Below are positions 7,958-33,878 of a stretch of 64,000 nt of DNA, piece after piece. This DNA comes from Acidobacteriota bacterium (GTDB lineage Bacteria; Acidobacteriota; Thermoanaerobaculia; Multivoradales; JAGPDF01): assembly GCA_039933785.1 (NCBI GenBank), contig JBDTNL010000009.1:8964-72963 (forward strand), given 5' to 3'. Position 1 is the stretch's first letter; the number at the start of each line of letters is the position of its first letter. A program made the position numbers and the translations under genes. The notes beneath the pieces are model-generated. The model saw only the letters and a program-made list of their open reading frames with translations. It had not been told where the DNA came from and did not search any database.

Positions 7958-7978
7958 CTCCTGGCGAATCACCGCGGC
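7942..7978 (-). terminator. Rho-independent terminator of the ECF sigma operon
   Basis: Minus strand GCCGCGGTGA...TCACCGCGGC followed by TTTTTT. Confidence 0.7.
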
Positions 7979-8029
7979 GGCAGAGTCGGCACGGGTCCAC
8001 TCGGACGACGCGCCGGGTAAAAATGGCGG

Positions 8030-8788
8030 TTACCGGTTGCGATTCTCGATTTTCTTCTGCAGCTCGGCCAGCCGCTTCTCGAGGTCGGCGAGCCGCTTCT
8101 CGAGCTCGGCCTCTCGGGCGCTGCGCAACACCATCACGCGATCGCGCATCGCAGGATCGCTGCCCATGGCGGCGACACGCTGGCGCACCGTCTGCATGGC
8201 CTCGTCCATCGCTGCGGCCTCCTGGGGCGAGAGCGCGTGCGACATCTTGCGCGGCAGGCTGCCGAACTCGAACACCTGACGGTTCTTCTCGATCACCGTG
8301 GCGGTCAGTTTCTCGAGCTTGCCGTCGCGGTAGAGCTCGAGGTCGAGTAGATCGCCGTCCTTCTTCTGGCGGACGGACGTCGAGACGTCCCAGGTGCTGC
8401 CGACCTCGTCGCCGCCGATACTGGTGAGGATGTCGCCGGCCTTTACTCCGGCCTTGGCCGCGGGACTGTCAGGCTCGACTCGCGACACCATGACGCCGGC
8501 GGTTCCGGCCACTCCGAAGTGCTCGCGCAGCTCCGGCGTGAGATCCATGAGGTTCACTCCGAGAAAGCCCTTGCCGAGCTGCTGCTCGTCGATCTTCATC
8601 CGTTCGGGCAGGCCATCGCCGGACCAGAAGGCGCCGTTGCCGTCGGCGCCGACCACGACCACGCGCGGCTTGCTGATGATCTTCTCCTTCACGACATCGA
8701 TCTTTGGTTCGCCATCCGCCCAAGCGGCGACTGGGAGAGCCAGCAGACAGAGCACGGAGAGAGCAGTACGTCGATTGAGATTGAGCAT
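8030..8788 (-). CDS. Exported PDZ-domain protein with C-terminal coiled coil
   Basis: Signal peptide (AAWA), GFLGV...GVMVSRVEPDSPAAKAGVKAGDIL PDZ signature, no protease domain; AGGAG RBS. Confidence 0.8.
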   Translation of the reverse strand: MLNLNRRTALSVLCLLALPVAAWADGEPKIDVVKEKIISKPRVVVVGADGNGAFWSGDGLPERMKIDEQQLGKGFLGVNLMDLTPELREHFGVAGTAGVMVSRVEPDSPAAKAGVKAGDILTSIGGDEVGSTWDVSTSVRQKKDGDLLDLELYRDGKLEKLTATVIEKNRQVFEFGSLPRKMSHALSPQEAAAMDEAMQTVRQRVAAMGSDPAMRDRVMVLRSAREAELEKRLADLEKRLAELQKKIENRNR

Positions 8789-8808
8789 GAACGTTCTCCT
8801 TCGAGACT

Positions 8809-9249
8809 TCAATTGCGAACGGTGCTCGCGGGGACCGCGGCGCCGGGCTTGAGGTTGGATGGATGGGTCGTGACGCTTGGATCGAGTCGCAAGACGACGT
8901 CGACGTCGTCGTCGCCGCCGAGATAGACCATGGCGGGTTGTTCGGTCGAGAGCCGCTTGATCTCGGCCAGCTCGCGTTCGAGCTCTTCGTGCTCGAAGCG
9001 CAGGGCGCTCACTTGCCCGCGAATCTCCTGGCGTTGGTGGGTGCGTTCGAGGATGCCGGCGCTCAAGACGGTGAGCAGTACGACGCTCGCCGCCAGCAAC
9101 ACCGTCGCGCGCGACCAACCGGGGACTGGAGCCGCGCTCGCCGACCAGGCCTCGGCCAGCACCGCGGCCGTGAAGCCGGCGCGGGCTTGCTCGCGCGGCA
9201 GAGACTCGAGCGCGGCGAGGACTTCGCAGTCCTCGGTCTCGGGCTTCAT
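8809..9249 (-). CDS. Putative single-pass membrane anti-sigma factor
   Basis: Overlaps the ECF sigma stop (ATGA); short cytoplasmic N-terminus, one TM helix, coiled coil. Confidence 0.6.
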   Translation of the reverse strand: MKPETEDCEVLAALESLPREQARAGFTAAVLAEAWSASAAPVPGWSRATVLLAASVVLLTVLSAGILERTHQRQEIRGQVSALRFEHEELERELAEIKRLSTEQPAMVYLGGDDDVDVVLRLDPSVTTHPSNLKPGAAVPASTVRN

Positions 9250-9863
9250 GACGATTCTCCCTTCCAGTAGCTGCGCAGGCGCTCGCGCAGGCGCAGGTGG
9301 CCGCGATGGACACGGGACTTGACGGTGCCCTCGCTGCAACCGAGCGACCGGGCGATCTCCTGATACGTCCAGCCCTCGACCCCGTGCAGCACCACTGCGG
9401 CGCGAAACTGCAATGGCAGCTCGGAGAGGGCTCGCTGCACCTCTCGCTGGGCTTCCTGCTGCAGCAGGCGCGCCGGGGCGGAGGCATGGCTGTGAGGCTC
9501 GCTCATCGGATACGGGGCTCGTATGGACACCTGTGAGAAGAGCCGGAACCGCCGCTCGCGTCGTTCCTCGGTGCGAGCCAGATTGGTCGCGATCCGATAG
9601 AGGTAGGGCAGCAGCCGGCCCTCTTCGCGATAGCGCGAGGCCGTCTGGAACAGCCGTAGGAACGCCTCTTGCGCCATCTCCTCGCCCCGGTCGCGATGGC
9701 CAGTGATGCGAGCCAAGTAGTTGACCAGGCAGTCTTTGTGGCGATCCACCAGGCTGCCGAGGGCGGTCTGGTCGCCGCTCTTGAGGCGGGCCATCAACTG
9801 GCTGTCCGAAGCCTCGACGGCGGTTCCGGTCGCTGCGTCGGGGATCAGGCTGTCGGCCGTCAT
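9246..9863 (-). CDS. ECF RNA polymerase sigma-70 factor
   Basis: Region 2 (EEMAQEAFLR...YLYRIATNLAR) and region 4 (YQEIARSLGCSEGTVKSRVHRG). Confidence 0.92.
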   Translation of the reverse strand: MTADSLIPDAATGTAVEASDSQLMARLKSGDQTALGSLVDRHKDCLVNYLARITGHRDRGEEMAQEAFLRLFQTASRYREEGRLLPYLYRIATNLARTEERRERRFRLFSQVSIRAPYPMSEPHSHASAPARLLQQEAQREVQRALSELPLQFRAAVVLHGVEGWTYQEIARSLGCSEGTVKSRVHRGHLRLRERLRSYWKGESS

Positions 9864-9883
9864 CACTGCTTCCACGACCGTAC

Positions 9884-9909
9884 TAACGCGGGAGGGGATA
9901 AAAGGTTCC
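9884..9909 (-). promoter_or_regulatory. Putative autoregulatory ECF promoter
   Basis: Minus strand GGAAC-N16-CGTTA about 20 nt upstream of ATG 9863, matching the AAC/CGT ECF consensus. Confidence 0.6.
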
Positions 9910-9946
9910 CGCGTTCTTCTCACCCGGGCGCGGCGGCGCCCTGCCC

Positions 9947-12727
9947 TTACGGTTTCGGCAATTCGGTCAGATCCCCGGCGACCACCAGGTTCATCTGTGC
10001 AGGGTGCATGTGCGCCTGGATGGCAGCGTTCACCTGCTCGCGGGTGACCTTGCGGATGCGGTTCGGGAATTCGTCGAGATAGGCAGGCCCGTAGCCGAAC
10101 TTCTCGGCCGTGGCGAGTGCCGTCGCGACCCCGGCGTTGTTGCCCAGGCGGACCTGGAAGTTGCCGGCGAAGTAACTCTTTTGCACTGCAACCTCGTCTT
10201 CGGTGATGCCTTCCCGGCAGTACTTTTCGATCTCGTCGCGCGTCGAATGCAACGCCTTGGCGAGATTTGCCGGCGCGACTGCGACGCTGACCTCCCAGAA
10301 TCCGTCCAGGAAGTCCGTCAGGAGGAACCGCGAGGACAGGTTATAGGACAAGCCCTCCGTGTCGCGCACCCGCACGCCCAGGCGCGAGGACATTCCGGAT
10401 TGGCCGAGCGCCGCGTTGGCGAGGAGCGCCGCGTCGTAGTCGGGATCGTTGCGGCGAAGGCCGCTCGCGAAGCCGAACATGAGGGTCATGTTGGCCTTTC
10501 CCGGGATGGTTTCAATCGACGACTGCGCCTTGCCGGGGCTCACTCGCGCGGTCGAAGGGGTAGGTCGCGTGCCCTTGGGCAAGGCGCCGAACAGCGCCGC
10601 GACGTCGCGGGCCACGGCCTTCGAGTCGACATCGCCCACCACGGTGAGGATCAGGCTTGACCCGACATAGCGCTGCTGATGAAACGAGCGCAGCTCCGCG
10701 ACCGTGGCGCGCTCGAGACTCGAGACCTGCTCCTTGGCCGAGGGGGCGTGGTTGGGGTGGCCTTCGGGGAAGATCAACCGCTGCAGTTTTTGAATCGCCC
10801 GATCGTCGGTGTCGTCGTCCGAGAGCAAGATGGCGTTCTTTTCCTCTGCCTTCGCCTTCCCGAGCTCGTCCTCACTCCAGGCGGGCTCCTCGAGCTCCTC
10901 GGCCAGCACTCCAAGCAGGAGATGGGTGTCGCGCGACAGGCCGCCGCCCGCGATCGCGATCTCGGTGCCACGGTTGGTGAGTGCGAGGCGCGCCCCGGCG
11001 CCGTCGAGCTGCGCCGCCAGGACCTGCTTGTCGCGGTGCTTGGTGCCGCGTTGCACCATGTCGGCGGCGAGTTGGGGTAGCGCCGGATGTCCGGAGGGCG
11101 CCGTTACATCGCCGGCCAGCAGCACCCCGCCCACGGCAACGGTCGGTACTTGATGATTCTCGACTATGTCCAGGATGATGCCGTTCGCCAGCACCTTGTG
11201 GAGAGTGCGCGCGGCGAAGGTCGTCGAGGGCACGGTTGCCACGGCGGCGGCCGGCGCTGGGGTCGAAGTCGCCTGCGGACTTGCCGCCGTGCCCGGTGGC
11301 GAGTCTGGGGCCGGGCTCGTGGCTGCGGCCGCCGCCGCGACAGGCGCGGTCTCGGCCGCCGTGGGGACGAACCAGCCCACGGTGGCGTGATCGGCTACGA
11401 GGTACGTCCTAGCGACGCGTTGCACGTCGGACGCGCTCACCGCCTTCAGCATGTCGACGTAACCCAGGAACCACTTCCAGTTTGCAGAAGCCACGGCCTC
11501 GCCGAGCGACTGCGCGAACGGGTAGGCGCCGTCGCGGCTACGAATGATGCCGACCTCGATCTGCCGCTTGGCGCGCTCGAGCTCGGTCGTGGTGACGCCC
11601 TCGCTCACCACCTTGGCGAGCGCGGCTTTCAATGCATCCTCGACCTGCTGCTGCGTCTTCCCGTCGCCGACCGTCGCCTGCACCATGAATGGGTAGGGAT
11701 CGCGCAGGGTCTGGTTCCAGGCCGCGGCGTCGGACGCGAGGCCGGTCTCGACCAGGGCCTGATGCAGGCGCGAGTTGATCCCGTCGCCGAGGATCTCAGC
11801 GAGCACGTCGAGCGGAATGAAGTCCGGGTGCAGCGCGCCCGGACGGATGTAGCCGATCTGCACCACGCCGACCTGCCCCGGACGCTTGACCAGCGTGCGC
11901 CGTTCGCCCTCCTGTGGCGGCTCGACCGTGATCACCTGTGGAATCGGATGGCTCGAGCGCGGCAGCGCGCCGAACTGTTGATCGAAGAGCGCCAGGGCCG
12001 CTGCTGGATCGAAGTCGCCGACCAGGATGGCCTCGGAATTGTCCGGCCAGAAGAAATCGCGATAGTGCTGGCGCAAGGTGTCCGTGGAAACCCCCTCGAT
12101 ATCCGAGCGGTAGCCGACGGTCGACCAGTGGTAGGGATGCGCCTGGATGGCTGTCGCCACCACCTCCTTGTCGAGCGCCTCGTACGGACTGTTCTCACCG
12201 ATCTCGTATTCGTTGCGCACCACGGTCATCTCGGGGCGCCGTTCCTCGTCCAGAATCAGGCCCCGCGCGAGCCGGTCGGCTTCGATCCGCATGGCGAGCT
12301 CGAGCTTGTCCGACGGCAGCGTCGAGTAGCCGTTCATGCGATCGAACCAGGTCGTCATGTTGGTGGTTGAGAAGTCCGCACCGGCCTCGAAGAGGACTTC
12401 CTGGAACGTCTTGTGGCCCTTGGCGCGGCCGAAGTTCTCGGTGCTCTTGTTGAACAGCATGTGCTCCAGGAGATGCGCCGAACCGGTGTTGCCCGGCGCC
12501 TCGTTGCGCGAGCCCACGTGGTAGACGACGAGGAAGGTGAACACCGGAGCGGCGTGGTTCGGCGCCAGCAGCAGGGTCATCCCATTGCTCTTGAGGCGGT
12601 ATTGCGTGACCCCCTGGAGCGAGTCGAGCTGTTCGACGTTCGCCGGGAGGATGGTCGCGGCCGAGGCCGTGAGCGGGAGCGCGAGTAGGGCGGAGAGAAC
12701 GAGGAGCGTGGACGAACGACGCGACAT
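9947..12727 (-). CDS. M16 family (pitrilysin-like) zinc peptidase, exported, two-half architecture
   Basis: Signal peptide, GSRNE..GNTGSAHLLEH (HxxEH), Ala/Pro linker, second M16 half with SRL..RVR..EGLSY. Confidence 0.9.
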   Translation of the reverse strand: MSRRSSTLLVLSALLALPLTASAATILPANVEQLDSLQGVTQYRLKSNGMTLLLAPNHAAPVFTFLVVYHVGSRNEAPGNTGSAHLLEHMLFNKSTENFGRAKGHKTFQEVLFEAGADFSTTNMTTWFDRMNGYSTLPSDKLELAMRIEADRLARGLILDEERRPEMTVVRNEYEIGENSPYEALDKEVVATAIQAHPYHWSTVGYRSDIEGVSTDTLRQHYRDFFWPDNSEAILVGDFDPAAALALFDQQFGALPRSSHPIPQVITVEPPQEGERRTLVKRPGQVGVVQIGYIRPGALHPDFIPLDVLAEILGDGINSRLHQALVETGLASDAAAWNQTLRDPYPFMVQATVGDGKTQQQVEDALKAALAKVVSEGVTTTELERAKRQIEVGIIRSRDGAYPFAQSLGEAVASANWKWFLGYVDMLKAVSASDVQRVARTYLVADHATVGWFVPTAAETAPVAAAAAATSPAPDSPPGTAASPQATSTPAPAAAVATVPSTTFAARTLHKVLANGIILDIVENHQVPTVAVGGVLLAGDVTAPSGHPALPQLAADMVQRGTKHRDKQVLAAQLDGAGARLALTNRGTEIAIAGGGLSRDTHLLLGVLAEELEEPAWSEDELGKAKAEEKNAILLSDDDTDDRAIQKLQRLIFPEGHPNHAPSAKEQVSSLERATVAELRSFHQQRYVGSSLILTVVGDVDSKAVARDVAALFGALPKGTRPTPSTARVSPGKAQSSIETIPGKANMTLMFGFASGLRRNDPDYDAALLANAALGQSGMSSRLGVRVRDTEGLSYNLSSRFLLTDFLDGFWEVSVAVAPANLAKALHSTRDEIEKYCREGITEDEVAVQKSYFAGNFQVRLGNNAGVATALATAEKFGYGPAYLDEFPNRIRKVTREQVNAAIQAHMHPAQMNLVVAGDLTELPKP

Positions 12728-22470: not shown

Positions 22471-24068
22471 ATCGACGGCTGATCGCGCTGATCCTGGTCC
22501 TGGCCACGGTCGCGGTCTTCCTCCCCAGTCTTGACAACGGCTTCGTCGGCTACGACGACGGCCTGTACGTCACCCAGAACGCGGAGGTGCAACGCGGTCT
22601 GACCGGTGATGGCATCGCCTGGGCGCTGACCGCGAAGGTGGCCGGCAACTGGCATCCGTTGACGCTGTGGTCCCACCTGCTCGACTGCACGCTCTTCGGG
22701 TTGAATCCCCGTGGCCATCACCTGACGAATCTCTTGTTGCATGCGGCGAATACCGTGCTGCTGTTTCTGCTCTTCTTTCGGCTTACGGCTACGCTATGGC
22801 GGTCGGCGGCGCTTGCGGCCCTGTGGGCGCTTCATCCGCTGCGTGTCGAGTCGGTAGCTTGGGTGGCGGAGCGCAAGGACGTGCTGGCGGGTCTCTTCTT
22901 TCTGTTGGCGTTGCTCGGGTACGAGCGCTGGTCTCGCGACCGCTCACGCACGGCGTACCTGCTCGTGATCGGCGCGATGGCGCTGGGGCTCATGGCGAAG
23001 CCGATGCTGGTCACGTTGCCGGGCGTTCTCCTGCTGCTCGACTTCTGGCCGCTTGGCCGCACGCGCTCGGGTGCAGGCTGGTGGATCGCTCTGAAGCCGC
23101 TGCTGATCGAAAAGCTGCCACTCTTTGCGCTCAGCGCAGCCAGCAGCTGGATCACCCTGCGCTACCAGGAGGCGGCTCTGGTGTCGGGGATGAATCTCTC
23201 GCTGTGGGGCCGGCTCGCCAACCTGGTGCTCGCTCCCGCGCAATACATCCGGGTGACTCTGTGGCCGAGCGGCCTCGCCGTGTTGTATCCATTGCCCGAC
23301 GACTTGCCGATCGGCAAGACGCTGTTGGCCGTGCTGGTTCTTGCGACGGTGAGCGTCTTGGCGTTTCACTGGCGGCGCACCGCGCCGTTCCTCGGGGTCG
23401 GCTGGTTGTGGTTTCTCGGCATGTTGGTGCCGGTGGTTGGAGTCGTCCAGGTGGGCGCTCAAGCGTGGGCTGATCGCTACACCTACCTGCCAGGGATCGG
23501 GTTGTTGGTGATGCTCGTTTGGAGTGCGACGGCGCTGGTCGAGAAACTCCCTCGGCGGCTTCGAGTTCCCTTGGCAGCCGGCCTGACGACCGTCCTGCTT
23601 GCTGGCTGCGCGGTCGCCACCCGGCGTCAGATTGCCTATTGGCACGACGACACCGCGCTTTGGCGCCGGGCCGTAGCGGTCACCGGGGAGAACTATGTTG
23701 CCGAGCTAAATCTCGCGCTCGAACTCGTTCACGATGGCGATCGAGCCTCGGCGCTCGAGCATTTTGAACGCGCGCAACGAATTGCTCCTGAATCGATGGA
23801 AGTGCAGGCCGGCTTCGGCGCCGCGCTCGGCGAGTGGGGACGTCCGGCGGAGGCGGTGCCCCATTTTCGCGCGGCGATCCGATTGCGCCCGGGCGATCCG
23901 CGACCCCGCGTCGATCTCGCGCGCGCGTTGATCGGTCTCGGCGACCGCCGGCAAGCGATCGAAGAGTTGCGCCGCGCCCTGGAGGTCGATCCGACGCTCC
24001 CCGGCGTGGCGGAGGCTCTTCGCCGACTGGAGGCGGAGGCCGCGAGCTCAGCCACGGAGCGGCCCTGA
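22467..24068 (+). CDS. TMTC-like membrane glycosyltransferase (GT-C) with C-terminal TPR repeats
   Basis: F..YDD, WHPLT..SH, H..N..LH, HPLRVESVAW..ERKD, ADRYTYLP, W.D...LW, then TPRs. Confidence 0.82.
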   Translation: MNRRLIALILVLATVAVFLPSLDNGFVGYDDGLYVTQNAEVQRGLTGDGIAWALTAKVAGNWHPLTLWSHLLDCTLFGLNPRGHHLTNLLLHAANTVLLFLLFFRLTATLWRSAALAALWALHPLRVESVAWVAERKDVLAGLFFLLALLGYERWSRDRSRTAYLLVIGAMALGLMAKPMLVTLPGVLLLLDFWPLGRTRSGAGWWIALKPLLIEKLPLFALSAASSWITLRYQEAALVSGMNLSLWGRLANLVLAPAQYIRVTLWPSGLAVLYPLPDDLPIGKTLLAVLVLATVSVLAFHWRRTAPFLGVGWLWFLGMLVPVVGVVQVGAQAWADRYTYLPGIGLLVMLVWSATALVEKLPRRLRVPLAAGLTTVLLAGCAVATRRQIAYWHDDTALWRRAVAVTGENYVAELNLALELVHDGDRASALEHFERAQRIAPESMEVQAGFGAALGEWGRPAEAVPHFRAAIRLRPGDPRPRVDLARALIGLGDRRQAIEELRRALEVDPTLPGVAEALRRLEAEAASSATERP

Positions 24069-24130
24069 GGCTCGCCGGAACTGGGGCGGGCGAGCGGGTC
24101 TAGAATGACTGACTGACGAGGTCGACGCAC

Positions 24131-25741
24131 ATGAGCCCTTCGGGAAAAATCGGACGCTACGAAATCACCGGCCAGCTCGGCCGCGGCGGCATGGGCGTCG
24201 TGCATTCGGCGCACGATCCGGCGCTCGACCGTGCCGTGGCGGTGAAGGTGCTGCACTTCGAGTCCGAGTCGGTGCTCAATTCTGGGCCCGACATGGAGGC
24301 GCGTTTCCTGCGCGAGGCGCGGCTCGCGGCGCGACTGCAGCATCCCTCGGTGGCGACGGTGTACGACGCCGGCCGCGAAGGCGACAGCCTGTATCTGGTG
24401 ATGGAGTTGGTCGACGGCGAGTCGCTGGCGCGCAAGCTCCAGCGCGGAGAGTTCCCCGAGCCCGAGCAGTCGATGCGCATCGTGGCGGCGGTCGCCGACG
24501 CGCTCGCCGCGGCGCACAAGGTGGGCATCGTCCACCGCGACGTGAAGCCGGCGAACATCCTCATGGCGAAAAACGGCGGCATCAAGGTCAGCGACTTCGG
24601 AATCGCCAAGGCGGTTGGGGAGTCGACCGAGCTGACCCGCACCGGCTCAGTGCTCGGGAGCCCGGCCTACATGGCGCCTGAGCAGGTCCAGGGTCAGGAG
24701 GTCGATGCCCGGGCGGATTTGTTCTCGCTCGGGGTCGTCCTCTATGAGTTGCTGCTGCACCGCAAGCCGTTCCCGGCGGATACCGTCACCACGCTGATCT
24801 ACCAGATCCTTCATCAGGACCCGTTCGCCGATTCCGCCACCTTCCGCGCGCTCGGCGAGGACGTGGGCGGTTTCCTGCGTTGGACCCTGGCCAAGAACCC
24901 GGCGGATCGGATTCCCGATGCGACGACGTTCGCGGCGAAGGCGCGCGCCTTGGCCGATCGCGTGCCCTCGGCGGCGGAGCTCACGGCACCGACGGTGATT
25001 CTGCCGACCAAGCTGGGTTCCGCAACTGCTACTGCGACGGCGCCCGTGGTGCCGCGCCGGTCACGAATTGGGTTTTGGGTCGCGGTCGCGGCTGCGTTGA
25101 CGGCCGCGCTCACCGCTGCCTACTGGTGGGGTACCCGGCCTCCGGCGATTCCTCCGAGTGTCGAGGTCACGCGGGTCGCGACGACGCCGGCACCGGCCGG
25201 GCCGGTGCCGCCCAAGGTTGCTGCCGTTCCCACTCCCGCTCCGGAGCCCGGTTCGACACCCCATGTCGCGGAGCCCGCGCCTGCCCCGCTGGCCAGCGTG
25301 CCGTCGGCAAATCGACCGCAGAAGGTCTCTCGCCCCGTAGCGGTAGCTCCTCTCGAACCCAGGAAAGAGGGCGCGAGCGGCGGTCCGGAGCATGTGCCCG
25401 CTCCCAAGCCGGAGCCGCCTGCCTTGGCGCCGGCCGAGGTCAAGCCGCCGCCAGCGTACGCGCCTCCGGTGGCGGTGTCGAAGACGTTTACCTGCCGCAA
25501 GGCGGCCGAGTTCAACGTCTCCCCGGAGGAGTCACATGTTTTGATCGAAGGCAAGGACATCGGTATCGCGGACGACTGGGATGGTTCCGGCGGAGGCAAG
25601 GACTACCCGTTGGCGGTGGGATCCTACGTGTCCTGCTTCATCCTCCAGGACTACAAGACCGCCTGTGTGCGGCTCACGATGGACCCCAAGGCCGGGGACG
25701 ACGTGTGCGATGTCGACACCGAGCTCGAAAAGAGCAAGTAG
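24131..25741 (+). CDS. Hanks-type Ser/Thr protein kinase, single TM helix, Pro-rich linker, PEGA-like extracytoplasmic domain
   Basis: LGRGGMG, VAVK, HRDVKPAN, DFG, YMAPE, DLFSLG; TM FWVAVAAALTAALTAAYWW. Confidence 0.92.
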   Translation: MSPSGKIGRYEITGQLGRGGMGVVHSAHDPALDRAVAVKVLHFESESVLNSGPDMEARFLREARLAARLQHPSVATVYDAGREGDSLYLVMELVDGESLARKLQRGEFPEPEQSMRIVAAVADALAAAHKVGIVHRDVKPANILMAKNGGIKVSDFGIAKAVGESTELTRTGSVLGSPAYMAPEQVQGQEVDARADLFSLGVVLYELLLHRKPFPADTVTTLIYQILHQDPFADSATFRALGEDVGGFLRWTLAKNPADRIPDATTFAAKARALADRVPSAAELTAPTVILPTKLGSATATATAPVVPRRSRIGFWVAVAAALTAALTAAYWWGTRPPAIPPSVEVTRVATTPAPAGPVPPKVAAVPTPAPEPGSTPHVAEPAPAPLASVPSANRPQKVSRPVAVAPLEPRKEGASGGPEHVPAPKPEPPALAPAEVKPPPAYAPPVAVSKTFTCRKAAEFNVSPEESHVLIEGKDIGIADDWDGSGGGKDYPLAVGSYVSCFILQDYKTACVRLTMDPKAGDDVCDVDTELEKSK

Positions 25742-25860
25742 AGCAACGGTGCGATAGAACTTGGGGAACTCCTTGGGGACAGGCCGGGTCGAACGGATTG
25801 GCGCCGGCGATCGGGCAGGCGCGTCGGGCGAGTCTGTAGTATCCTTCTAAGCCCCTGAAG

Positions 25861-26904
25861 ATGCTGGACAAATTGGAGAATCCCACCCGTCTGAAGCAGC
25901 GTCTCCTGCGCGAGGCGGTGCAGGAGAATGTGGACGTGGTGCAGGGCAAGTGGCCGCGGCGCACGGAGCGCAAGCGGCCCTGGGCGCTCGGCGCCGGCGC
26001 TCTCGTATTGGCCCCAGCTCTCTTACTGCTCGGCTCCAGCCGAACCTCTTCAGTGACTGGCGGGGGCGCCGCGCGGACAGCAGCCGATTCTCCGAAGGTT
26101 TTGGCGACCGCTCCCGCTGCGACCGAAGCGCGGCCGTCGCTGCCGCAGGCCATCGATCCGGCGGTGTTTCCGCTCGCGGTGAAGCGGGTCGTGGTCGACG
26201 CGGGACACGGCGGTGAGAATCGCGGCACGATCTCGCCCCGCGGGTTGATCGAGAAGGACCTGACGCTCGATGTCGGCATGCGTCTGGCCCTCCTCCTGCA
26301 TGGCGCAGGCTTCGAAGTCATCCTCACCCGGCAGCAGGACGAGAGCGTCTCGCTGGCGCGGCGCACCGAGATCGCCAACGCCGCGAAGGCCGATGCTTTC
26401 GTGTCGATTCACGTCAATTGGTTCACCACCCGGGAGAGCCGCGCGGTCGAGACGTACTACCTCGGACCGACGGCCGACCCCGAGCTCAATCGCCTGGCCG
26501 CCGCCGAGAATGGCGAGTCGGGTTACGCGCTCGCCGACTTCAAGCGGCTCCTGGAGGGCGTATACGCGGGCGTGCGCGAGGAACAGTCGCGTCAACTCGC
26601 CGACGCGATCGACGGCGCCTTGTTCCGTTCGCTACGAGCCGTGAACCCGACACTGAAGGATCGCGGTGTCAAGACCGCGCCCTTCGTGGTCCTCGTGGGC
26701 ACGCAGATGCCCGCCATCCTGGCCGAGGTCTCGTGTCTCTCGAACGCCGAGGAGGCCGATCTCTTGTCCGACGACAGCTACCGTCAGCGCATCGCGGTGG
26801 CGCTCTTCGCCGGCGTCAAGGCCTTCGCCGAGCGCACGGGCAGCGAGAGCGTCGCTCCAACGGTTCGCGTGGCGCAGAAAATCGGTCCTCAGAAAGGAAC
26901 CTGA
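25861..26904 (+). CDS. N-acetylmuramoyl-L-alanine amidase (Amidase_3), membrane-anchored
   Basis: VVDAGHGG, EK..TL, LTR, R..IAN, FVSIHVN, A..EN inhibitory helix, APFVVL....P.IL.E; basic ~40-aa N-terminus followed by a hydrophobic helix. Confidence 0.92.
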   Translation: MLDKLENPTRLKQRLLREAVQENVDVVQGKWPRRTERKRPWALGAGALVLAPALLLLGSSRTSSVTGGGAARTAADSPKVLATAPAATEARPSLPQAIDPAVFPLAVKRVVVDAGHGGENRGTISPRGLIEKDLTLDVGMRLALLLHGAGFEVILTRQQDESVSLARRTEIANAAKADAFVSIHVNWFTTRESRAVETYYLGPTADPELNRLAAAENGESGYALADFKRLLEGVYAGVREEQSRQLADAIDGALFRSLRAVNPTLKDRGVKTAPFVVLVGTQMPAILAEVSCLSNAEEADLLSDDSYRQRIAVALFAGVKAFAERTGSESVAPTVRVAQKIGPQKGT

Positions 26905-26908
26905 TTCG

Positions 26909-27937
26909 ATGACCTCGGATGCAGTGCTCTACGCCGGAATCGACCTCGGTACTTCTCGCAGCTCGATCTCGGCCTCGAATGGGCAGCGCCACGTCGTCGA
27001 CAGCTTCGTCGGCTGGCCGGTCGACATGGTGGCGCGCAAGGTACTGAAGAAGTCCGTGGTCATCGGGCGCGAGGCGCTCGAGAATCGTCTGATGCTGGAT
27101 CTGCATCGTCCGCTCGAGCGCGGCCTGATCAAGGAAGGCTCGGAGAAGGACGAGGCTGCGGTGCGCGAGCTGCTCATCCATCTCCTCGGCTTGGTGGGCG
27201 TCGACGCAGGCAACTCCGGTGGCCACAAGGTGAGAGCCGTGGTCGGGGTCCCGGCCGAAGCCTTGCGCGTGAACAAGCAGGCGCTCCGAAACGCGATGCG
27301 CGGACTGACCGGAAGTCTGATGATCGTCTCGGAGCCCTTCTCGGTGGCCTACGGGATGGAGGCGCTGGTGCACACCATGATCATCGACATCGGTGCGGGC
27401 ACCACGGACTTCTGCGTCATGAATGGCCGCTACCCGACCGAGGAAGATCAGCGCACGCTCACCAATGCAGGCGATCAAGTCGACGAGCAGCTATATAAGA
27501 TGATTCGCGATCGCCACCCCACGGCGCGCTTCTCGATCCACATGGTACGCGAGTGGAAAGAGCGGTGGAGCTTCGTTGGTGAGCCGCGTGAACGCGTGCT
27601 GGTAACCGCGCCCGTCGACGGCAAGCCGACGCAGATCGACATCACCGACGAGGTGCGCGCGGCCTGCGAATCGCTGCTGCCGCCGATCACCGAGACCATG
27701 GTCGACTTGTTGTCGCGGGTCGAGCCCGAGTTTCAAGCCAAGGTGCGGGACAACGTCATCCTCTCGGGAGGTGGCGGGCTTATCCGAGGCCTCGACGAGC
27801 GCCTCGCGAAGGCTCTGCAGGACCTTGGCGGCGGTCGAGTTCGAGTGGTCAAGGATCCAATCTACGTGGGCTCCGACGGCGGGTTGGCGATTGCCGGCGA
27901 CGCTCCCGAGTCGGATTGGGAGAAGTTGTCGTCATGA
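26909..27937 (+). CDS. mamK: MamK-like bacterial actin (342 aa)
   Basis: GIDLGTS, AVVGVPA, VSEPFSVAYG, IIDIGAGTTDFC.M.G..P.EEDQ.TL..AG..VDE.L, KE..SFVG, ACE.L.P.I.E, NVILSGGG..IRGL, VKDP...G..GGL..A...P...W. These match the MamK sequence as I recall it much better than MreB. AAGGA RBS before ATG 26909. Confidence 0.82.
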   Translation: MTSDAVLYAGIDLGTSRSSISASNGQRHVVDSFVGWPVDMVARKVLKKSVVIGREALENRLMLDLHRPLERGLIKEGSEKDEAAVRELLIHLLGLVGVDAGNSGGHKVRAVVGVPAEALRVNKQALRNAMRGLTGSLMIVSEPFSVAYGMEALVHTMIIDIGAGTTDFCVMNGRYPTEEDQRTLTNAGDQVDEQLYKMIRDRHPTARFSIHMVREWKERWSFVGEPRERVLVTAPVDGKPTQIDITDEVRAACESLLPPITETMVDLLSRVEPEFQAKVRDNVILSGGGGLIRGLDERLAKALQDLGGGRVRVVKDPIYVGSDGGLAIAGDAPESDWEKLSS

Positions 27938-27951
27938 GGGACATACCGCGC

Positions 27952-27980
27952 TTGACTTGCCGTCGAGCGGCGGATAACGT
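27952..27980 (+). promoter_or_regulatory. Putative sigma-70 promoter of the TPR-tonB-exbBDD operon
   Basis: TTGACT-N17-TAACGT in the intergenic region. Confidence 0.5.
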
Positions 27981-28043
27981 GCGCTCGTCTGTGACGATTC
28001 CGACGCGAGTCTGACAATCTGACCTGTCTTTTAAGGATCAGCT

Positions 28044-28868
28044 ATGCGCCGTGCTTTCTCGAGTGTTTGCCTCCTTGCAGTAGCTCTCGTGCCGCTCGTC
28101 GGGTGCCAGAAGATGCAGGCCCGCGTCGAGTTAAAAAAAGGCAACGAGCTCTACAAGGAAGAGGCCTATCGCGAGGCGATGTCCCAGTTCCAAAAGGGCA
28201 TCGAGCTCGATCCTGCGGCGACCTTTGCGTGGCGGTCGGTCGGACTTTCTGCGATGGCGGTTTACCGCCCCGGAGCGAAGTCGGCGGACAACGACAAGTA
28301 TGCCGAAACCGCCATCGACGCTTTCAAGAAGTACCTCGAGGCCTACCCGAGCGATGGCAAGGTCCAGGACTACCTGATGACCATGCTCATCAACAGCGAG
28401 CGTTACGACGACGCCCTGACTATGATGAAGGCCGAGTTGGTGAAGAATCCCAACAAGCCGGGACTCAACCAGGGCATCGTCAATACCCTGGCTAAGGCCG
28501 GACGCCTCAACGAGGCGTACGACTGGGCCCTTCGTCAAGGTGGCACGCCGGATCCGGCGGTCTTCTACAGTATCGGTGTTGCCTGTTGGGACAAGGCGTA
28601 CTACGACCCGATGCTCGACGCGACCGCGCGCGGCAAGATCGTCGACACCGGCCTGGCGGCGACCAAACGCTCGCTCGACATGAAGCCCGACTACTTCGAG
28701 GCGATGGCTTACTACAACCTACTCTTCCGCGAGAAGGCTAAGCTCGAGGTCGATCCGGCCGCGGCGAACGAGTACATCGCGAAGGCCGTCGAGTGGACGA
28801 ACAAGGCGATCGCGTTGCGCGAGCTGCAGAAGAACAAAGACGCAGCGGCTGCTAAGAAGGTCAGCTAG
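28044..28868 (+). CDS. TPR-repeat lipoprotein
   Basis: LVGC lipobox; TPR-like helices (GNELYK..AY..A..QF.K.IELDP; P.YFEAMAYYNL). Confidence 0.8.
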   Translation: MRRAFSSVCLLAVALVPLVGCQKMQARVELKKGNELYKEEAYREAMSQFQKGIELDPAATFAWRSVGLSAMAVYRPGAKSADNDKYAETAIDAFKKYLEAYPSDGKVQDYLMTMLINSERYDDALTMMKAELVKNPNKPGLNQGIVNTLAKAGRLNEAYDWALRQGGTPDPAVFYSIGVACWDKAYYDPMLDATARGKIVDTGLAATKRSLDMKPDYFEAMAYYNLLFREKAKLEVDPAAANEYIAKAVEWTNKAIALRELQKNKDAAAAKKVS

Positions 28869-28897
28869 CTGCTCGCCTGATCGCCGAGGATTCTGAA

Positions 28898-29620
28898 ATG
28901 TTCGAAAGTGCGCTGATCGAATCGGGCCAGAAGATCGACAAGAAGAAGCTGAAGTGGATTCCGCTGGCGCTGATTATCCACGGTGTCGTCTTGGTCACCG
29001 TGGTGGTGGGCCAGTACTGGAGCGTGGATCCGGTGCCCGAGCCGCCTATCCAGGTGAGCTTCTTCTCGGCGGCGACGCCACCGCCACCGCCTCCGCCTCC
29101 TCCGCCTCCTCCGCCGCCGGCTCCAAAGCCCGTAGTGCAAGAGACTCATCCGATCGAAGTTCCGACCGAACCCGTACAGCCGGTCGTGGTGCCTGAGAAG
29201 GTGCCCGAAGCGCCGGCCACTCCGACGCAGGATGCCGGAGTCGAGGGTGGAGTCGAAGGTGGCGTCCCCGGTGGCGTGCCCGGCGGTGTGGCGGGCGGCG
29301 TTCCAGGCGGCGTCGAAGGCGGCACCGAAGAAATCCTGCGCGTCGGCGGAGCCATCAACAAGCCGGAAATCCTTACCCGCGTTCAGCCGGTGTACACCGA
29401 GGCTGCGCGTCGCGCCCGCATCCAGGGCGTGGTTATCGTGGAAACCATCATCGACAAAACGGGCAGCGTCACCAACGTCAGGGTCCTCAAGGCGCTGCCC
29501 ATGGGTCTGGATAACGCGGCGGTAGAGGCCGTGAAGAAGTGGAAGTTCAAGCCCGCCGATCTCAATGGGCGGCCGGTGAACGTTTACTTCGTGCTTACGG
29601 TCAACTTCACGCTGCAGTAA
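28898..29620 (+). CDS. tonB: Energy transducer TonB
   Basis: TM helix with conserved His, 14-Pro tract, GGVxGG repeats, C-terminal PVYTEAARRARIQGVV...AVKKWKFKP domain. Confidence 0.9.
   Translation: MFESALIESGQKIDKKKLKWIPLALIIHGVVLVTVVVGQYWSVDPVPEPPIQVSFFSAATPPPPPPPPPPPPPPAPKPVVQETHPIEVPTEPVQPVVVPEKVPEAPATPTQDAGVEGGVEGGVPGGVPGGVAGGVPGGVEGGTEEILRVGGAINKPEILTRVQPVYTEAARRARIQGVVIVETIIDKTGSVTNVRVLKALPMGLDNAAVEAVKKWKFKPADLNGRPVNVYFVLTVNFTLQ
29078..29323 (+). repeat. Low-complexity coding repeats in TonB (poly-Pro 29078-29119; GGVx repeats 29237-29323)
   Basis: 14 consecutive CCN codons and tandem Gly-Gly-Val-X units. Confidence 0.85.
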
Positions 29621-29647
29621 ACAAAAATTCCTAGGAGGAGCAGAGTC

Positions 29648-30346
29648 ATGGGATTGGATCTCTCAGAAATTCTAAGGAACATGTCGGGCGTTGGACTGTC
29701 CGTCATGGTGGTCCTTCTTCTGTGCTCGATCTGGTCGGTCTACGTATGCATCGAGCGCCTCATGTACTTCCGCAAGGCCAAGCAGCAGTCGCTGGTCTTC
29801 GCCAAGCAGGTGACGCAGTACCTGGCGCAGGATCGCGTCAGCGATGCGATCGAAGCCTCGCGCAAGTACAAGAACAGCCACCTTGCCCGCGTTACCCGCG
29901 CCGGACTAATCGAGTTCCAACTCGTCGACAGCAAGCCGGGCGCGCTCTCGGGCGCCGATGTGGTCGAAGCCGCGCGCCGGGCGATCGAGCGCGAGACGCT
30001 GATCACCTACTCGGATTTCAAGAAGGGCACCGGCAGCCTGGCGACCATCGCCACGACGGCGCCCTTTATCGGCCTGCTCGGCACTGTGATCGGAATCATC
30101 GCCGCGTTCCACGGCATGGCGACGAGCGGTTCGGGCGGCATCGGGGCGGTCTCGCAAGGTATTTCTGAAGCCCTGGTGGCCACGGCGCTCGGCCTGATGG
30201 TGGCCATTCCAGCGGCTTGGATGTACAACTACTTCACGAATGTGCTCGAGCGCTTCCAGGTCGAGATGTCCAACTCATCGTCGGAGTTGATCGACTTCTT
30301 CATCAAGAAGCACGGAGGCAGCGATGCAGTTGGGGTCCGGCAGTAA
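29648..30346 (+). CDS. exbB: MotA/TolQ/ExbB proton channel protein
   Basis: LATIATTAPFIGLLGTVIGII.AF...GISEALVATALGL.VAIPA...YN. Confidence 0.93.
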   Translation: MGLDLSEILRNMSGVGLSVMVVLLLCSIWSVYVCIERLMYFRKAKQQSLVFAKQVTQYLAQDRVSDAIEASRKYKNSHLARVTRAGLIEFQLVDSKPGALSGADVVEAARRAIERETLITYSDFKKGTGSLATIATTAPFIGLLGTVIGIIAAFHGMATSGSGGIGAVSQGISEALVATALGLMVAIPAAWMYNYFTNVLERFQVEMSNSSSELIDFFIKKHGGSDAVGVRQ

Positions 30347-30785
30347 GGGCAACTACGGCTCCGGCTTCCAGATGGGCTCGTTCGAAGTCAAGAGCGAGAT
30401 CAACGTCACGCCGCTCGTCGATGTCTGCTTGGTGTTGCTGATCATCTTCATGGTGGTCACGCCGCTGCTCCAATCAGGTGTCGATGTTCAGCTGCCCTCG
30501 ACGTTGAAGCCGGAGAAGATCGCGGAAAGCTCGAAGCAGGTGAACGTCGCGATCAAGTCGAACGGCGACATCTTCCTCGGCCAGAACTGGGTTCCGGCGG
30601 AGAAGTTCGGCGCCCAGATGAAGGACTTGTTCACGCAGTCGCCCGAGAAGGACATCGTGATCAAGGCGGACCGCCGGCTAAAGTACAAGGACGTGCGCAA
30701 GGTAATGGAAATGGTCAACGACGCCGGCTACAGCGGCGTCGGCTTGATCACGACCCGCAAGGACACGTCGGCCGGCTCACACTGA
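30324..30785 (+). CDS. exbD: ExbD/TolR family protein (copy 1)
   Basis: EINVTPLVDVCLVLLIIFMV with the essential Asp; IKAD..L.Y. Confidence 0.92.
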   Translation: MQLGSGSKGNYGSGFQMGSFEVKSEINVTPLVDVCLVLLIIFMVVTPLLQSGVDVQLPSTLKPEKIAESSKQVNVAIKSNGDIFLGQNWVPAEKFGAQMKDLFTQSPEKDIVIKADRRLKYKDVRKVMEMVNDAGYSGVGLITTRKDTSAGSH

Positions 30786-30816
30786 CCGACGGCGATTCGG
30801 GAAGAGGAGAAGCGTC

Positions 30817-31269
30817 ATGGGAATGGGTGGTGGTGGAGGCAAGGGCCTCAAGAGCGAGATCAACGTCACGCCGTTGGTCGACGTGGTGCTGGTGTTGCTC
30901 ATCATCTTCATGGTGATCATCCCGATGACGCAGGTTGGCTACGCCGTGAACACGCCTCCCAAAGTCGAGACCAAGATGCCGCAGCCGCAGGACAACGATC
31001 AGTTGATCGTGCGGCTCGACGCCAACGGCAGCATCTTCATCAACAAGGAGGCAGTGCCCGAGGCGCAATTCGCCGGTCGGTTCCGCGAGGTGATCAGGAA
31101 CCGCGAGACCAAGATCGTGTTCTTCGCCGCCGACGGCGAGATCACGTACGACCGGGTGGCGAGCGTGATGGACTTGTGCCGCGAAGCTGGCGCCAAGAAC
31201 CTCGGCATCGTGTTCGACGATTTGAAGCCCGGTCCGGGCGCGGCGATAGCGGTAGGCCTCGCTCAGTGA
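30817..31269 (+). CDS. exbD: ExbD/TolR family protein (copy 2)
   Basis: EINVTPLVDVVLVLLIIFMV; AD..I.Y..V..VMD. Confidence 0.92.
   Translation: MGMGGGGGKGLKSEINVTPLVDVVLVLLIIFMVIIPMTQVGYAVNTPPKVETKMPQPQDNDQLIVRLDANGSIFINKEAVPEAQFAGRFREVIRNRETKIVFFAADGEITYDRVASVMDLCREAGAKNLGIVFDDLKPGPGAAIAVGLAQ

Positions 31270-31436: not shown

Positions 31437-33878
<2,442 letters not shown>

What the first reader, a model, noticed from the sequence alone, without database searches (positions are those of the whole stretch)
25861..27937. MamK-type actin outside a magnetosome island, coupled to a membrane-anchored peptidoglycan amidase
Seen: the 342-aa protein has actin phosphate loops (GIDLGTS, DIGAGTTD, SGGG) plus the catalytic-Glu segment VSEPF.VAYG, P.EEDQ.TL..AG, KE..SFVG and a C-terminal P...W..L. 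By my recollection these align colinearly with MamK rather than MreB, FtsA or ParM. There is no mreC/mreD and no other mam gene in the 64 kb. Its ATG is 4 bp after the amidase stop and its RBS lies inside the amidase gene. The amidase has a basic ~40-aa N-terminal tail and a TM-like helix instead of a typical cleavable signal plus AMIN domain. Known: MamK filaments position magnetosomes. Inference: here the filament may bind the amidase's cytoplasmic tail and direct peptidoglycan cleavage along a track (shape, branching, division or insertion of a trans-envelope machine), which would be an undescribed role for a MamK-family actin.
Basis: partly seen in the sequence, partly recalled or inferred. 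Interest (0 to 1): 0.85.

Follow-up and report, generated by a model that had tools for sequence, protein, structure and literature searches.

The report
Amidase-coupled MamK-like actin gene pair
A bacterial actin closely related to the magnetosome protein MamK sits in a tight two-gene unit with a cell-wall-cutting amidase that carries a conserved cytoplasmic tail. The same pair recurs in many non-magnetic bacterial phyla, which suggests an undescribed link between a cytoskeletal filament and a wall hydrolase.

Summary
Window 25861-26904 encodes an Amidase_3 protein of 347 aa. Its stop lies 4 nt before the ATG of a 342-aa actin-fold ATPase (26909-27937). That actin scores far better as MamK than as BeeR or MreB.

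The genome is a 92.8% complete MAG, probably Thermoanaerobaculia. It has its own mreBCD and no magnetosome-specific gene above cut-off.

The pair is not a local oddity:
- An amidase lies directly upstream in 33 of 33 loci from the same phylum.
- It does so in 78 of 80 loci from other phyla; the two misses are cut by contig ends.
- It does so in 20 of 20 further loci of this actin type, against 0 of 41 other MamK-family loci.

The amidase-linked actins form one clade, separate from magnetosome MamKs. The amidase tree mirrors the actin tree, and no third gene travels with the pair.

The amidases share an N-terminal amphipathic motif with an invariant Asn, a basic cluster, a hydrophobic segment, a variable linker, and a catalytic domain with the AmiA/B/C-type insert.

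Best reading: the filament binds the cytoplasmic tail and positions the periplasmic amidase. I found no paper that describes this pairing.

The parts
25861..26904 (+). Amidase gene (347 aa, P0002): N-terminal tail, hydrophobic segment, linker, and Amidase_3 domain.
   Evidence: ORF and translation. Pfam Amidase_3 154.2 bits at residues 110-320. An ortholog lies directly upstream of the actin in 33/33, 78/80 and 20/20 loci.
25888..25941 (+). Conserved cytoplasmic tail motif, residues 10-27 (RLKQRLLREAVQENVDVV). Family pattern: [KR]-x-x-hyd-hyd-x-x-hyd-x-x-[ED]-N-hyd.
   Evidence: In 90 aligned tails, K/R at position 12 is 90/90, hydrophobic residues at 15, 16 and 19 are 90/90, and Asn23 is 90/90. 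Hydrophobic moment is 0.44-0.51. An HMM of the motif hits only this ORF in the whole genome (E 2.8e-6; next best 0.49).
25978..26040 (+). Hydrophobic segment, residues 40-60 (PWALGAGALVLAPALLLLGSS), preceded by a basic cluster. Probably an N-in/C-out signal anchor.
   Evidence: across 88 orthologs: median uncharged stretch 18 aa, median KD 2.3, net charge +5 upstream and 0 downstream. A strict RR-x-hyd-hyd pattern occurs in only 9 of 88.
26041..26175 (+). Variable, Ala/Pro/Ser/Thr/Gly-rich periplasmic linker, residues 61-105.
   Evidence: This region is poorly alignable and varies in length among orthologs.
26188..26820 (+). Amidase_3 catalytic domain, residues 110-320. His116, Glu131, His184 and Glu289 are invariant.
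   Evidence: for the domain. Invariant columns come from the 88-sequence alignment A5. These residues align to the GHGG / EK / SIH / E motifs of AmiA 8c2o.
26467..26646 (+). Insert of about 60 aa, residues 203-262. It corresponds to the regulatory (blocking/interaction helix) region of AmiA/B/C.
   Evidence: The protein aligns in one stretch through this region to AmiA 8c2o, AmiC 4bin and AmiB 3ne8/8c0j. It splits in two around the region against CwlV 1jwq and 5emi. The insert is conserved in the family (N217 invariant, E216 nearly so).
26893..26899 (+). Shine-Dalgarno-like AAAGGAA for the actin gene, inside the amidase 3' end.
   Evidence: Read directly from the sequence; 9 nt before the ATG at 26909.
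26909..27937 (+). MamK-family actin-like ATPase gene (342 aa, P0001), a member of the amidase-linked clade.
   Evidence: 40% identical to a verified Magnetospirillum-type MamK. The clade has SH-aLRT 99 and UFBoot 97 / SH-aLRT 87.
26936..26956 (+). Phosphate-1 loop, GIDLGTS (residues 10-16).
   Evidence: G10, D12, L13, G14, T15 and S16 are invariant in 90 orthologs.
27386..27409 (+). Phosphate-2 loop, DIGAGTTD (residues 160-167).
   Evidence: D160, G162, A163, G164, T165 and D167 are invariant in 90 orthologs.

Best explanation
This is a self-contained, translationally coupled two-gene module. It encodes a cytoplasmic MamK-family actin-like filament protein and a bitopic peptidoglycan amidase.

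Shown:
- The module is conserved as a unit across many non-magnetotactic phyla.
- Its actins form their own clade within the MamK family.
- Its amidases share a unique N-terminal amphipathic motif, a basic cluster, a hydrophobic segment, and an AmiA/B/C-like catalytic domain with intact metal and catalytic residues and the regulatory insert.

Inferred:
- The amidase is anchored N-in/C-out.
- Its tail helix docks on the filament, much as FtsN's tail docks on FtsA, RodZ on MreB and ParR on ParM.
- The filament therefore tethers, clusters or moves the amidase along the inner membrane and decides where peptidoglycan cross-links are cut.
- Equivalently, the amidase tail ties the filament to the membrane, since the actin has no membrane-binding segment of its own.
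- Because the regulatory insert is present, activity probably still needs relief of autoinhibition, by a LytM-type factor or by clustering.
For: Family assignment:
- MamK 376.9 bits, BeeR 212.8, MreB 76.6. PDB MamK 267 bits.

Not a magnetosome gene:
- No Mam family is above cut-off.
- A verified mamAB operon finds only generic weak hits in the genome.
- Orthologs occur in 40 of 41 genomes of the order.

Linkage:
- An amidase lies directly upstream in 33/33, 78/80 (both misses are cut by contig ends) and 20/20 loci of this actin type, against 0/41 other MamK-family loci.
- The amidase stop lies at most 74 nt before the actin's GxDLGT loop in 107 of 111 loci.
- No third gene is conserved with the pair.
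- Neighbouring genes are housekeeping genes.

One clade and co-inheritance:
- Actin trees.
- The amidase tree repeats the same groupings: L026 basal in the same 15-row subclade, and the pairs L039+L092, L103+L107, L115+L116 and L091+L096.

Tail:
- Asn23 is invariant in 90/90 tails and the hydrophobic residues follow a helical periodicity.
- The motif is unique in the genome.
- The adjacent linker is hypervariable.

Anchor:
- Charge bias and hydrophobicity fit a signal anchor.

Amidase competence and insert.

Genome background:
- A second, conventional Amidase_3 with a signal peptide exists on C30.
- mreBCD is present.
- Seven M23/LytM-domain proteins are encoded elsewhere.
Against:
- Only six actin positions separate the amidase-linked clade from other MamKs, and all are conservative changes. 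No obvious dedicated docking surface stands out.
- In the window's own protein the hydrophobic stretch is only moderately hydrophobic (KD 1.57) and follows RR..RKR. A cleavable Tat or Sec signal is therefore not excluded, and TatC is present.
- The tail could instead bind the membrane or another protein.
- One 98%-complete genome of the same order (G321) lacks the actin, and only 25 of 301 sampled genomes of the phylum have it. The module is therefore accessory.
- There is no expression evidence.
Confidence: 0.55

Rival explanations
1. The two genes are co-expressed but do not touch. They serve one process, for example late division or cell separation. The conserved tail binds something else, such as a divisome protein or the membrane surface.
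For: Operon linkage alone does not prove contact. The actin shows few clade-specific surface changes. The amidase has the AmiA/B/C-type regulatory insert, which in known systems is addressed from the periplasm by LytM factors, and seven M23 proteins are encoded elsewhere.
Against: No other gene is conserved with the pair in any phylum. The two trees mirror each other. The tail motif is strictly tied to amidases that sit next to this actin clade in every locus examined. The actin lacks any membrane-binding segment of its own.
Confidence: 0.22
2. The N-terminal region is a long export signal (Tat or Sec) that is cleaved. The conserved n-region motif is a recognition site used before export, and the mature amidase is a soluble periplasmic enzyme. 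Any contact with the actin-fold ATPase would be transient, chaperone-like or for site-specific delivery.
For: E. coli AmiA and AmiC are Tat substrates (recalled knowledge). The window protein has RR and RKR just before a moderately hydrophobic stretch (KD 1.57) followed by small residues (GSS). Several close orthologs have RR directly before the hydrophobic stretch. TatC is present in the genome.
Against: A strict RR-x-hyd-hyd pattern occurs in only 9 of 88 orthologs. Many orthologs have no RR at all (KK or a single R). Many also have very hydrophobic 14-20-aa segments (median KD 2.3, up to about 3) with no small-x-small site. Pfam found no TAT_signal. This fits an uncleaved signal anchor better.
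Confidence: 0.12
3. The pair is a mobile-element cassette, with plasmid or phage segregation by the actin and lysis or wall penetration by the amidase.
For: ParM and Alp actins are often on mobile elements (recalled). The pair sits in different genomic contexts in different lineages, and its tree suggests some cross-phylum transfer.
Against: Flanking genes are housekeeping genes: DNA polymerase I, citrate synthase, thiamine-phosphate synthase and sensor kinases. No recurrent integrase, transposase or phage gene cluster appeared. The pair is near-universal and single-copy within a whole order (40/41).
Confidence: 0.03
4. It is a remnant or silent part of a magnetosome gene cluster, and the actin is a true MamK.
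For: Best family hit and best structure hit are MamK.
Against: No MamI, MamP, MamQ or MamO is above cut-off. MamI, J, L, N, P, R and B from a verified operon give no tblastn hit. The actin lies outside all clades that hold magnetosome-linked MamKs.
Confidence: 0.01

Closest known systems
MamK (magnetosome actin; PDB 5jyg, 5ljv; NCBIfam NF040964)
   Same: Same actin subfamily. The match is colinear and full length, at 40% identity to a verified MamK. The ATPase motifs and the catalytic-Glu segment are conserved. Other members of the amidase-linked clade exceed NCBI's MamK cut-off (412-441 bits).
   Different: It is not in a mam operon and has no MamJ, MamL or MamI partners. It forms a separate clade. 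It is always preceded by an amidase, which none of 41 other MamK-family loci have. The window protein scores 376.9 bits, below the cut-off of 400.
BeeR (Verrucomicrobiota three-stranded tubular actin; PDB 8r2n; PMC11929497, whole text read)
   Same: It is also a MamK-related actin found in non-magnetotactic bacteria with unknown function.
   Different: The match is much more distant (212.8 bits against a cut-off of 530; 140.6 bits to 8r2n). The window actin has no 30-50-aa disordered N-terminal extension. The paper does not mention an amidase.
Bbp, the 'big bacteria protein' (PMC10580974, section 9 and passages read), and saltatorellin (bioRxiv 10.1101/817700, passages read)
   Same: Both are MamK-like actins outside magnetosomes, each present in addition to MreB.
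   Different: The bbp operon is bbp plus a hypothetical gene plus a Kelch-like gene. 'Amidase' occurs 0 times in either text. I had no sequences for either, so membership of the amidase-linked clade could not be tested. Supplements were closed.
FtsA-FtsN, MreB-RodZ and ParM-ParR (actin-like filament plus a partner that docks by a short peptide or domain)
   Same: The proposed logic is the same: a short cytoplasmic segment of a bitopic protein (FtsN, RodZ) or an adaptor helix (ParR) binds an actin-like filament and couples it to periplasmic wall enzymes or cargo. This comparison rests on recalled knowledge.
   Different: Here the bitopic partner would itself be the hydrolase. The tail motif is unrelated to those partners. 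No binding has been shown.
AmiA/AmiB/AmiC cell-separation amidases with FtsEX-EnvC/NlpD control (PDB 8c2o, 4bin, 3ne8, 8c0j)
   Same: Amidase_3 fold with the same metal and catalytic residues and the same regulatory insert region.
   Different: It has no AMIN domain or conventional signal peptide and carries the conserved cytoplasmic tail instead. It scores far below the NCBIfam cut-offs (AmiA 86.6/400, AmiC 79.1/700, AmiB 74.7/532). The genome has a separate conventional paralog.

Membership tests
MamK family (NCBIfam NF040964, subfamily model) | HMM score at or above the curated cut-off (400 bits) | tested here: not met
   The window protein scores 376.9 bits. Clade-mates in other phyla score 408-441 bits, above cut-off. 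Verified magnetosome MamKs score 485-549 bits.
MamK family (NCBIfam NF040964, subfamily model) | Actin-fold ATPase with phosphate-1, phosphate-2 and adenosine motifs and a catalytic Glu, and closest solved relative is MamK | tested here: met
   5jyg gives 267 bits over residues 7-340, against BeeR 140.6 and MreB 55.1.
Magnetosome MamK in the functional sense | Encoded in a magnetosome gene cluster with mamI/E/J/L/M/O/P/Q/B, in a genome that holds that gene set | tested here: not met
   The positive-control operon L144 scores above all these cut-offs.
Magnetosome MamK in the functional sense | Groups inside clades of magnetosome-linked MamKs | tested here: not met
   It forms a separate clade with all amidase-linked actins, with SH-aLRT 99 and UFBoot 97 / SH-aLRT 87.
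Magnetosome MamK in the functional sense | ATP-dependent polymerisation into filaments | not testable with these tools
   Needs biochemistry or imaging.
MreB | MreB-specific HMM above cut-off and linkage to mreC/mreD | tested here: not met
   PRK13927 scores 76.6 against a cut-off of 293, and TIGR00904 scores 59.1 against 365.75. The true mreB (496 bits), mreC and mreD are on contig C7.
BeeR (NF053558) | HMM score at or above 530 bits; N-terminal disordered extension | tested here: not met
   212.8 bits. The actin motifs start at residue 10.
AmiA/B/C-type division amidases | Amidase_3 domain with Zn ligands, catalytic Glu and the regulatory insert | tested here: met
   The insert was judged by alignment only; no 3-D model could be made.
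AmiA/B/C-type division amidases | Cleavable Sec/Tat signal plus (for AmiB/C) an AMIN targeting domain; equivalog HMM above cut-off | tested here: not met
   No AMIN or TAT_signal hit. AmiA 86.6/400, AmiC 79.1/700, AmiB 74.7/532. The N-terminus looks like a signal anchor across the family. Cleavage itself is not testable here.
Bbp / saltatorellin | Sequence membership of those published clades | not testable with these tools
   No sequences were available. A grep for the termini implied by the published saltatorellin primers found nothing among the 297 proteins held.

The most novel reading that the evidence does not exclude
A third kind of actin-guided cell-wall machine. A cytoplasmic, possibly treadmilling MamK-type filament carries a peptidoglycan amidase directly as its transmembrane cargo, through a dedicated tail helix. 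Filament position or polymerisation state would then dictate where, and perhaps whether, the wall is cut. That would be inside-out control of a hydrolase by an actin instead of by FtsEX-EnvC. This would also give a first function for the large population of non-magnetosome MamK-like actins. It would suggest that magnetosome MamK is a specialised offshoot of a wall-associated cytoskeleton, or the reverse.
Probability: 0.3. Interest if true: 0.85.

Novelty: new variant of a known kind. Interest (0 to 1): 0.72.

Why it matters
MamK-related actins outside magnetotactic bacteria (BeeR, Bbp, saltatorellin) are known, but none has a function or a partner.

This subfamily comes with a fixed, recognisable partner: a wall amidase with a conserved cytoplasmic docking-type peptide. 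That turns 'what do these filaments do?' into a direct experiment covering binding, localisation, and deletion in cultured carriers such as strain NaphS2.

If the link holds, it adds a new way for bacteria to place a potentially lethal hydrolase, alongside the MreB elongasome and the FtsA/FtsEX divisome routes.

It also bears on annotation. These proteins are currently named either 'rod shape-determining protein' or 'MamK family'. MamK alone should therefore not be used as a marker for magnetotaxis.

Tried and rejected
**Approaches that gave nothing**
- Magnetosome reading: rejected.
- MreB paralog reading: rejected.
- Mobile-element reading: no support in the flanks.
- Conserved third gene: none found. 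The window's kinase, TPR, TonB and other neighbours are not conserved with the pair, even in relatives.
- Other carriers of the tail motif in this genome: none.
- ESM Atlas look-alikes of the tail: no usable feature hit, only generic helices by structure.
- Expression: no RNA holder listed.
- Promoter and terminator scan of 24000-29000: 0 promoter-like sites and 3 terminator-like sites, all on the minus strand and at chance level.
- Saltatorellin: a grep for the termini implied by the published primers found nothing among the held proteins.
- Tail-actin covariation: not attempted, because about 110 pairs are too few.
- Natural amidase-actin fusions: the long MamK-like forms have N-terminal parts without Pfam domains, apart from one FtsZ fusion, so they offer no fusion evidence. 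The 'longer' mode of the search for homologous proteins was not run, so I cannot say that no fused form exists.
- Supplements of the Bbp, BeeR and saltatorellin papers were closed. They may hold trees or sequences that bear on whether those families overlap this clade.
Full report
**What is there**

The + strand holds an ORF at 25861..26904 (347 aa, P0002) and, after a TGA stop and 4 nt, an ORF from ATG 26909 to 27937 (342 aa, P0001). An AAAGGAA stretch lies 9 nt before that ATG, inside the first gene.

P0002 has one Pfam domain, Amidase_3 at residues 110-320 (154 bits).

P0001 is an actin-fold ATPase:
- NCBIfam: MamK 376.9 bits (cut-off 400), BeeR 212.8, MreB 76.6.
- Solved structures: MamK 5jyg 267 bits over residues 7-340, BeeR 8r2n 140.6, MreB 1jce 55.

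**Genome background**

The window lies on contig C9 of a 4.23-Mb, 150-contig assembly that is 92.8% complete. Named close homologues of the actin are labelled Thermoanaerobaculia or Acidobacteriota, so I infer that taxon.

A canonical mreB (496 bits), followed by mreC (114.8) and mreD (32.3), sits on contig C7.

The magnetosome families are absent or far below cut-off:

| Family | Result in this genome |
|---|---|
| MamI | no hit |
| MamP | 28.8 bits, cut-off 300 |
| MamQ | 94.7 bits, cut-off 250 |
| MamO | 82.6 bits, cut-off 800 |

As a positive control I fetched a real mamAB operon, L144. Its MamI, E, J, K, L, M, O, P, Q and B all pass their cut-offs. A tblastn of its proteins against the window's genome found only generic weak matches (LemA, TPR, HtrA, CDF, MFS) and the actin itself at 40% identity. 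There was nothing for MamI, J, L, N, P, R or B.

**The pair is conserved, and widely**

- Orthologues of the actin (63-75% identical) occur in 40 of 41 genomes of the window's order and nearby families. The one miss is 65% complete.
- Only 25 of 301 sampled genomes of the phylum have it. One that lacks it, G321, is a 98%-complete genome of the same order.
- In all 33 of 33 loci from these two searches (own locus included), a homologue of the amidase lies directly upstream on the same strand.
- A scan of one genome per species with a 52%-identical representative (P0126) returned 80 loci in named MAGs and isolates. The labels include Thermodesulfobacteriota 30, Pseudomonadota 26, Nitrospirota 5, Methylomirabilota 2, Chrysiogenota 1, Aminicenantes and others.
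- Of those 80 loci, 78 have the amidase directly upstream. In the other two the actin starts less than 80 nt from the contig end.
- The MamK HMM was then run over Rhodospirillales, Nitrospirota and Desulfobacterota samples. It gave two score classes.
- Among 61 of those loci, the amidase is present in 20 of 20 where the actin is at least 50% identical to P0001, and in 0 of 41 of the rest.
- The rest include verified magnetosome clusters: L128-L143 and L192.
- The amidase stop lies at most 74 nt before the actin's GxDLGT codons in 107 of 111 loci. The genes therefore abut or overlap almost everywhere.

**Nothing else travels with the pair**

Clustering all ORFs in the 80 loci found only the amidase and actin clusters to be widespread. 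The window's kinase (Pkinase), TPR protein, TonB and other neighbours are not conserved beside the pair, either in other phyla or in close relatives. Recurrent neighbours in sublineages are housekeeping genes such as DNA polymerase I, citrate synthase, thiamine-phosphate synthase and a sensor kinase.

**Phylogeny**

The first tree was a quick IQ-TREE run (LG+G4, 121 rows, own MreB as outgroup).
- Rows were thinned before building: 112 to 32 amidase-linked rows at 72% identity, 17 to 4 mam-linked, 23 to 14 others, and 70 of 150 database representatives that align over at least 300 residues.
- All 32 amidase-linked actins plus 4 representatives of unknown context form one clade with SH-aLRT 99.
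- Inside it, the window's Thermoanaerobaculia subclade has support 100 and a multi-phylum subclade has 98.
- Magnetosome-linked MamKs fall elsewhere.

A careful run on 69 hand-picked rows gave UFBoot 97 / SH-aLRT 87 for the same clade. Its bootstrap had not fully settled.

The amidase tree (33 rows, quick) repeats the same groupings, including cross-phylum pairs. The two genes have therefore been inherited, and probably transferred, together.

**The amidase**

Across 88-90 orthologues the N-terminus reads [KR]-x-x-hyd-hyd-x-x-hyd-x-x-[ED]-N-hyd.
- K/R12, hydrophobic residues at 15, 16 and 19, and Asn23 are each present in 90 of 90 tails. The spacing puts them on one helical face (hydrophobic moment 0.44-0.51).
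- A basic cluster follows, then an uncharged hydrophobic stretch. Its median length is 18 aa and median KD 2.3, with net charge +5 before and 0 after.
- A hypervariable linker comes next.
- The catalytic domain has invariant H116, E131, H184 and E289.

The protein aligns in one piece, through a roughly 60-aa insert (residues 203-262), to E. coli AmiA, AmiC and AmiB. Unregulated amidases (CwlV, 5emi) align in two pieces around the insert. It therefore carries the region that forms the autoinhibitory and interaction helices in those enzymes; the function of that region is recalled knowledge.

An HMM of the tail motif finds only this ORF in the genome. The genome also has a conventional Amidase_3 with a signal peptide and a long N-terminal domain on C30, and seven M23/LytM-domain proteins.

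**Interpretation**

The conserved facts are:
- a filament-type ATPase with no membrane-binding segment;
- a hydrolase whose only conserved cytoplasmic feature is an amphipathic peptide;
- strict co-occurrence and tight coupling of the two genes;
- no third partner.

These are best explained by direct docking of the tail on the filament, which would place or move the periplasmic amidase. This is an inference, by analogy with FtsN-FtsA, RodZ-MreB and ParR-ParM.

The main rivals are co-expression without contact, and a cleavable export signal. For the window's own protein the second is not excluded: RR/RKR precede a stretch of only moderate hydrophobicity, and TatC is present. Across the family, however, a strict twin-arginine pattern occurs in only 9 of 88 orthologues.

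**Literature**

- No paper in the searched library holds both 'MamK-like' and 'amidase'.
- The searches listed none that links a MamK-type actin to an amidase.
- BeeR (PMC11929497, whole text read) is reported as a MamK-related actin of non-magnetotactic bacteria with unknown function.
- Bbp (PMC10580974, section 9 and passages read) has a different operon.
- Saltatorellin (bioRxiv 10.1101/817700, passages read) forms filaments in E. coli.
- 'Amidase' occurs 0 times in the Bbp and saltatorellin texts.
- Supplements were closed, and subscription journals are not in the library.

**Verdict**

The family assignment and the 'outside a magnetosome island' claim are right. The proposed tail-filament contact is plausible and now better motivated, but it is unproven. 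I rate it a new variant of a known kind, with high specialist interest.

Noticed in passing
P0194 (database representative, 768 aa): A natural FtsZ-MamK fusion: Tubulin/FtsZ domains at residues 4-307 and a MamK-like actin domain at 435-753. It groups inside the clade that holds Rhodospirillales magnetosome MamKs.
   Followed up: partly
P0134-P0157 (database representatives, 523-1232 aa): A well-supported clade of 14 representatives (SH-aLRT 99) has a C-terminal MamK-like domain and N-terminal extensions of about 190-900 aa. Pfam recognises no domain in the extensions of the eight scanned.
   Followed up: partly
L193 (G1158:C12:27000-46999), about 8714-11373, minus strand: Two tandem MamK-like genes, each 50% identical to a verified MamK, are separated by a 160-aa ORF with a faint intermediate-filament-like (coiled-coil) hit. 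No other alphaproteobacterial-type Mam hit lies within 20 kb.
   Followed up: partly
L194 (G957:C1:42000-61999), 6907-10214, plus strand: Another cassette type: a MamK-like gene (44% identical to P0001) preceded by overlapping 651-aa and 117-aa ORFs with no Pfam family and no amidase. Related loci L179-L182, L184 and L186 form their own clade.
   Followed up: partly
window 24131-25741 (+): A Ser/Thr protein kinase (Pkinase, 184 bits) with a Pro/Ala-rich C-terminal half lies directly upstream of the amidase. It is not conserved beside the pair in relatives.
   Followed up: partly
window 28044-31269 (+), then 31437-33878 (+): The region holds a TPR-like lipoprotein candidate, a TonB homologue (TonB_C, 78.9 bits) and three small ORFs that look like ExbB/ExbD by eye. 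A large polytopic membrane protein that looks like a proton pyrophosphatase follows. Only TonB_C and a weak TPR hit were checked.
   Followed up: partly
G321 (same order, 2 contigs, 98% complete): This near-closed genome of the same order has no match to the actin at E<=1e-20. The module can therefore be lost.
   Followed up: no
G000:C2:127045-128121 and C2:132051-132611: An HtrA/PDZ protease and a LemA-family gene about 4 kb apart produced the weak MamE/O/P and MamQ hits. Both are far below cut-off and look generic.
   Followed up: no
L039 and L040 (same phylum as the window, other families): In both trees their actin and amidase group with the multi-phylum subclade rather than with the window's subclade; L039 pairs with L092 from a Thermodesulfobacteriota MAG. 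This hints at transfer of the whole pair between phyla.
   Followed up: partly
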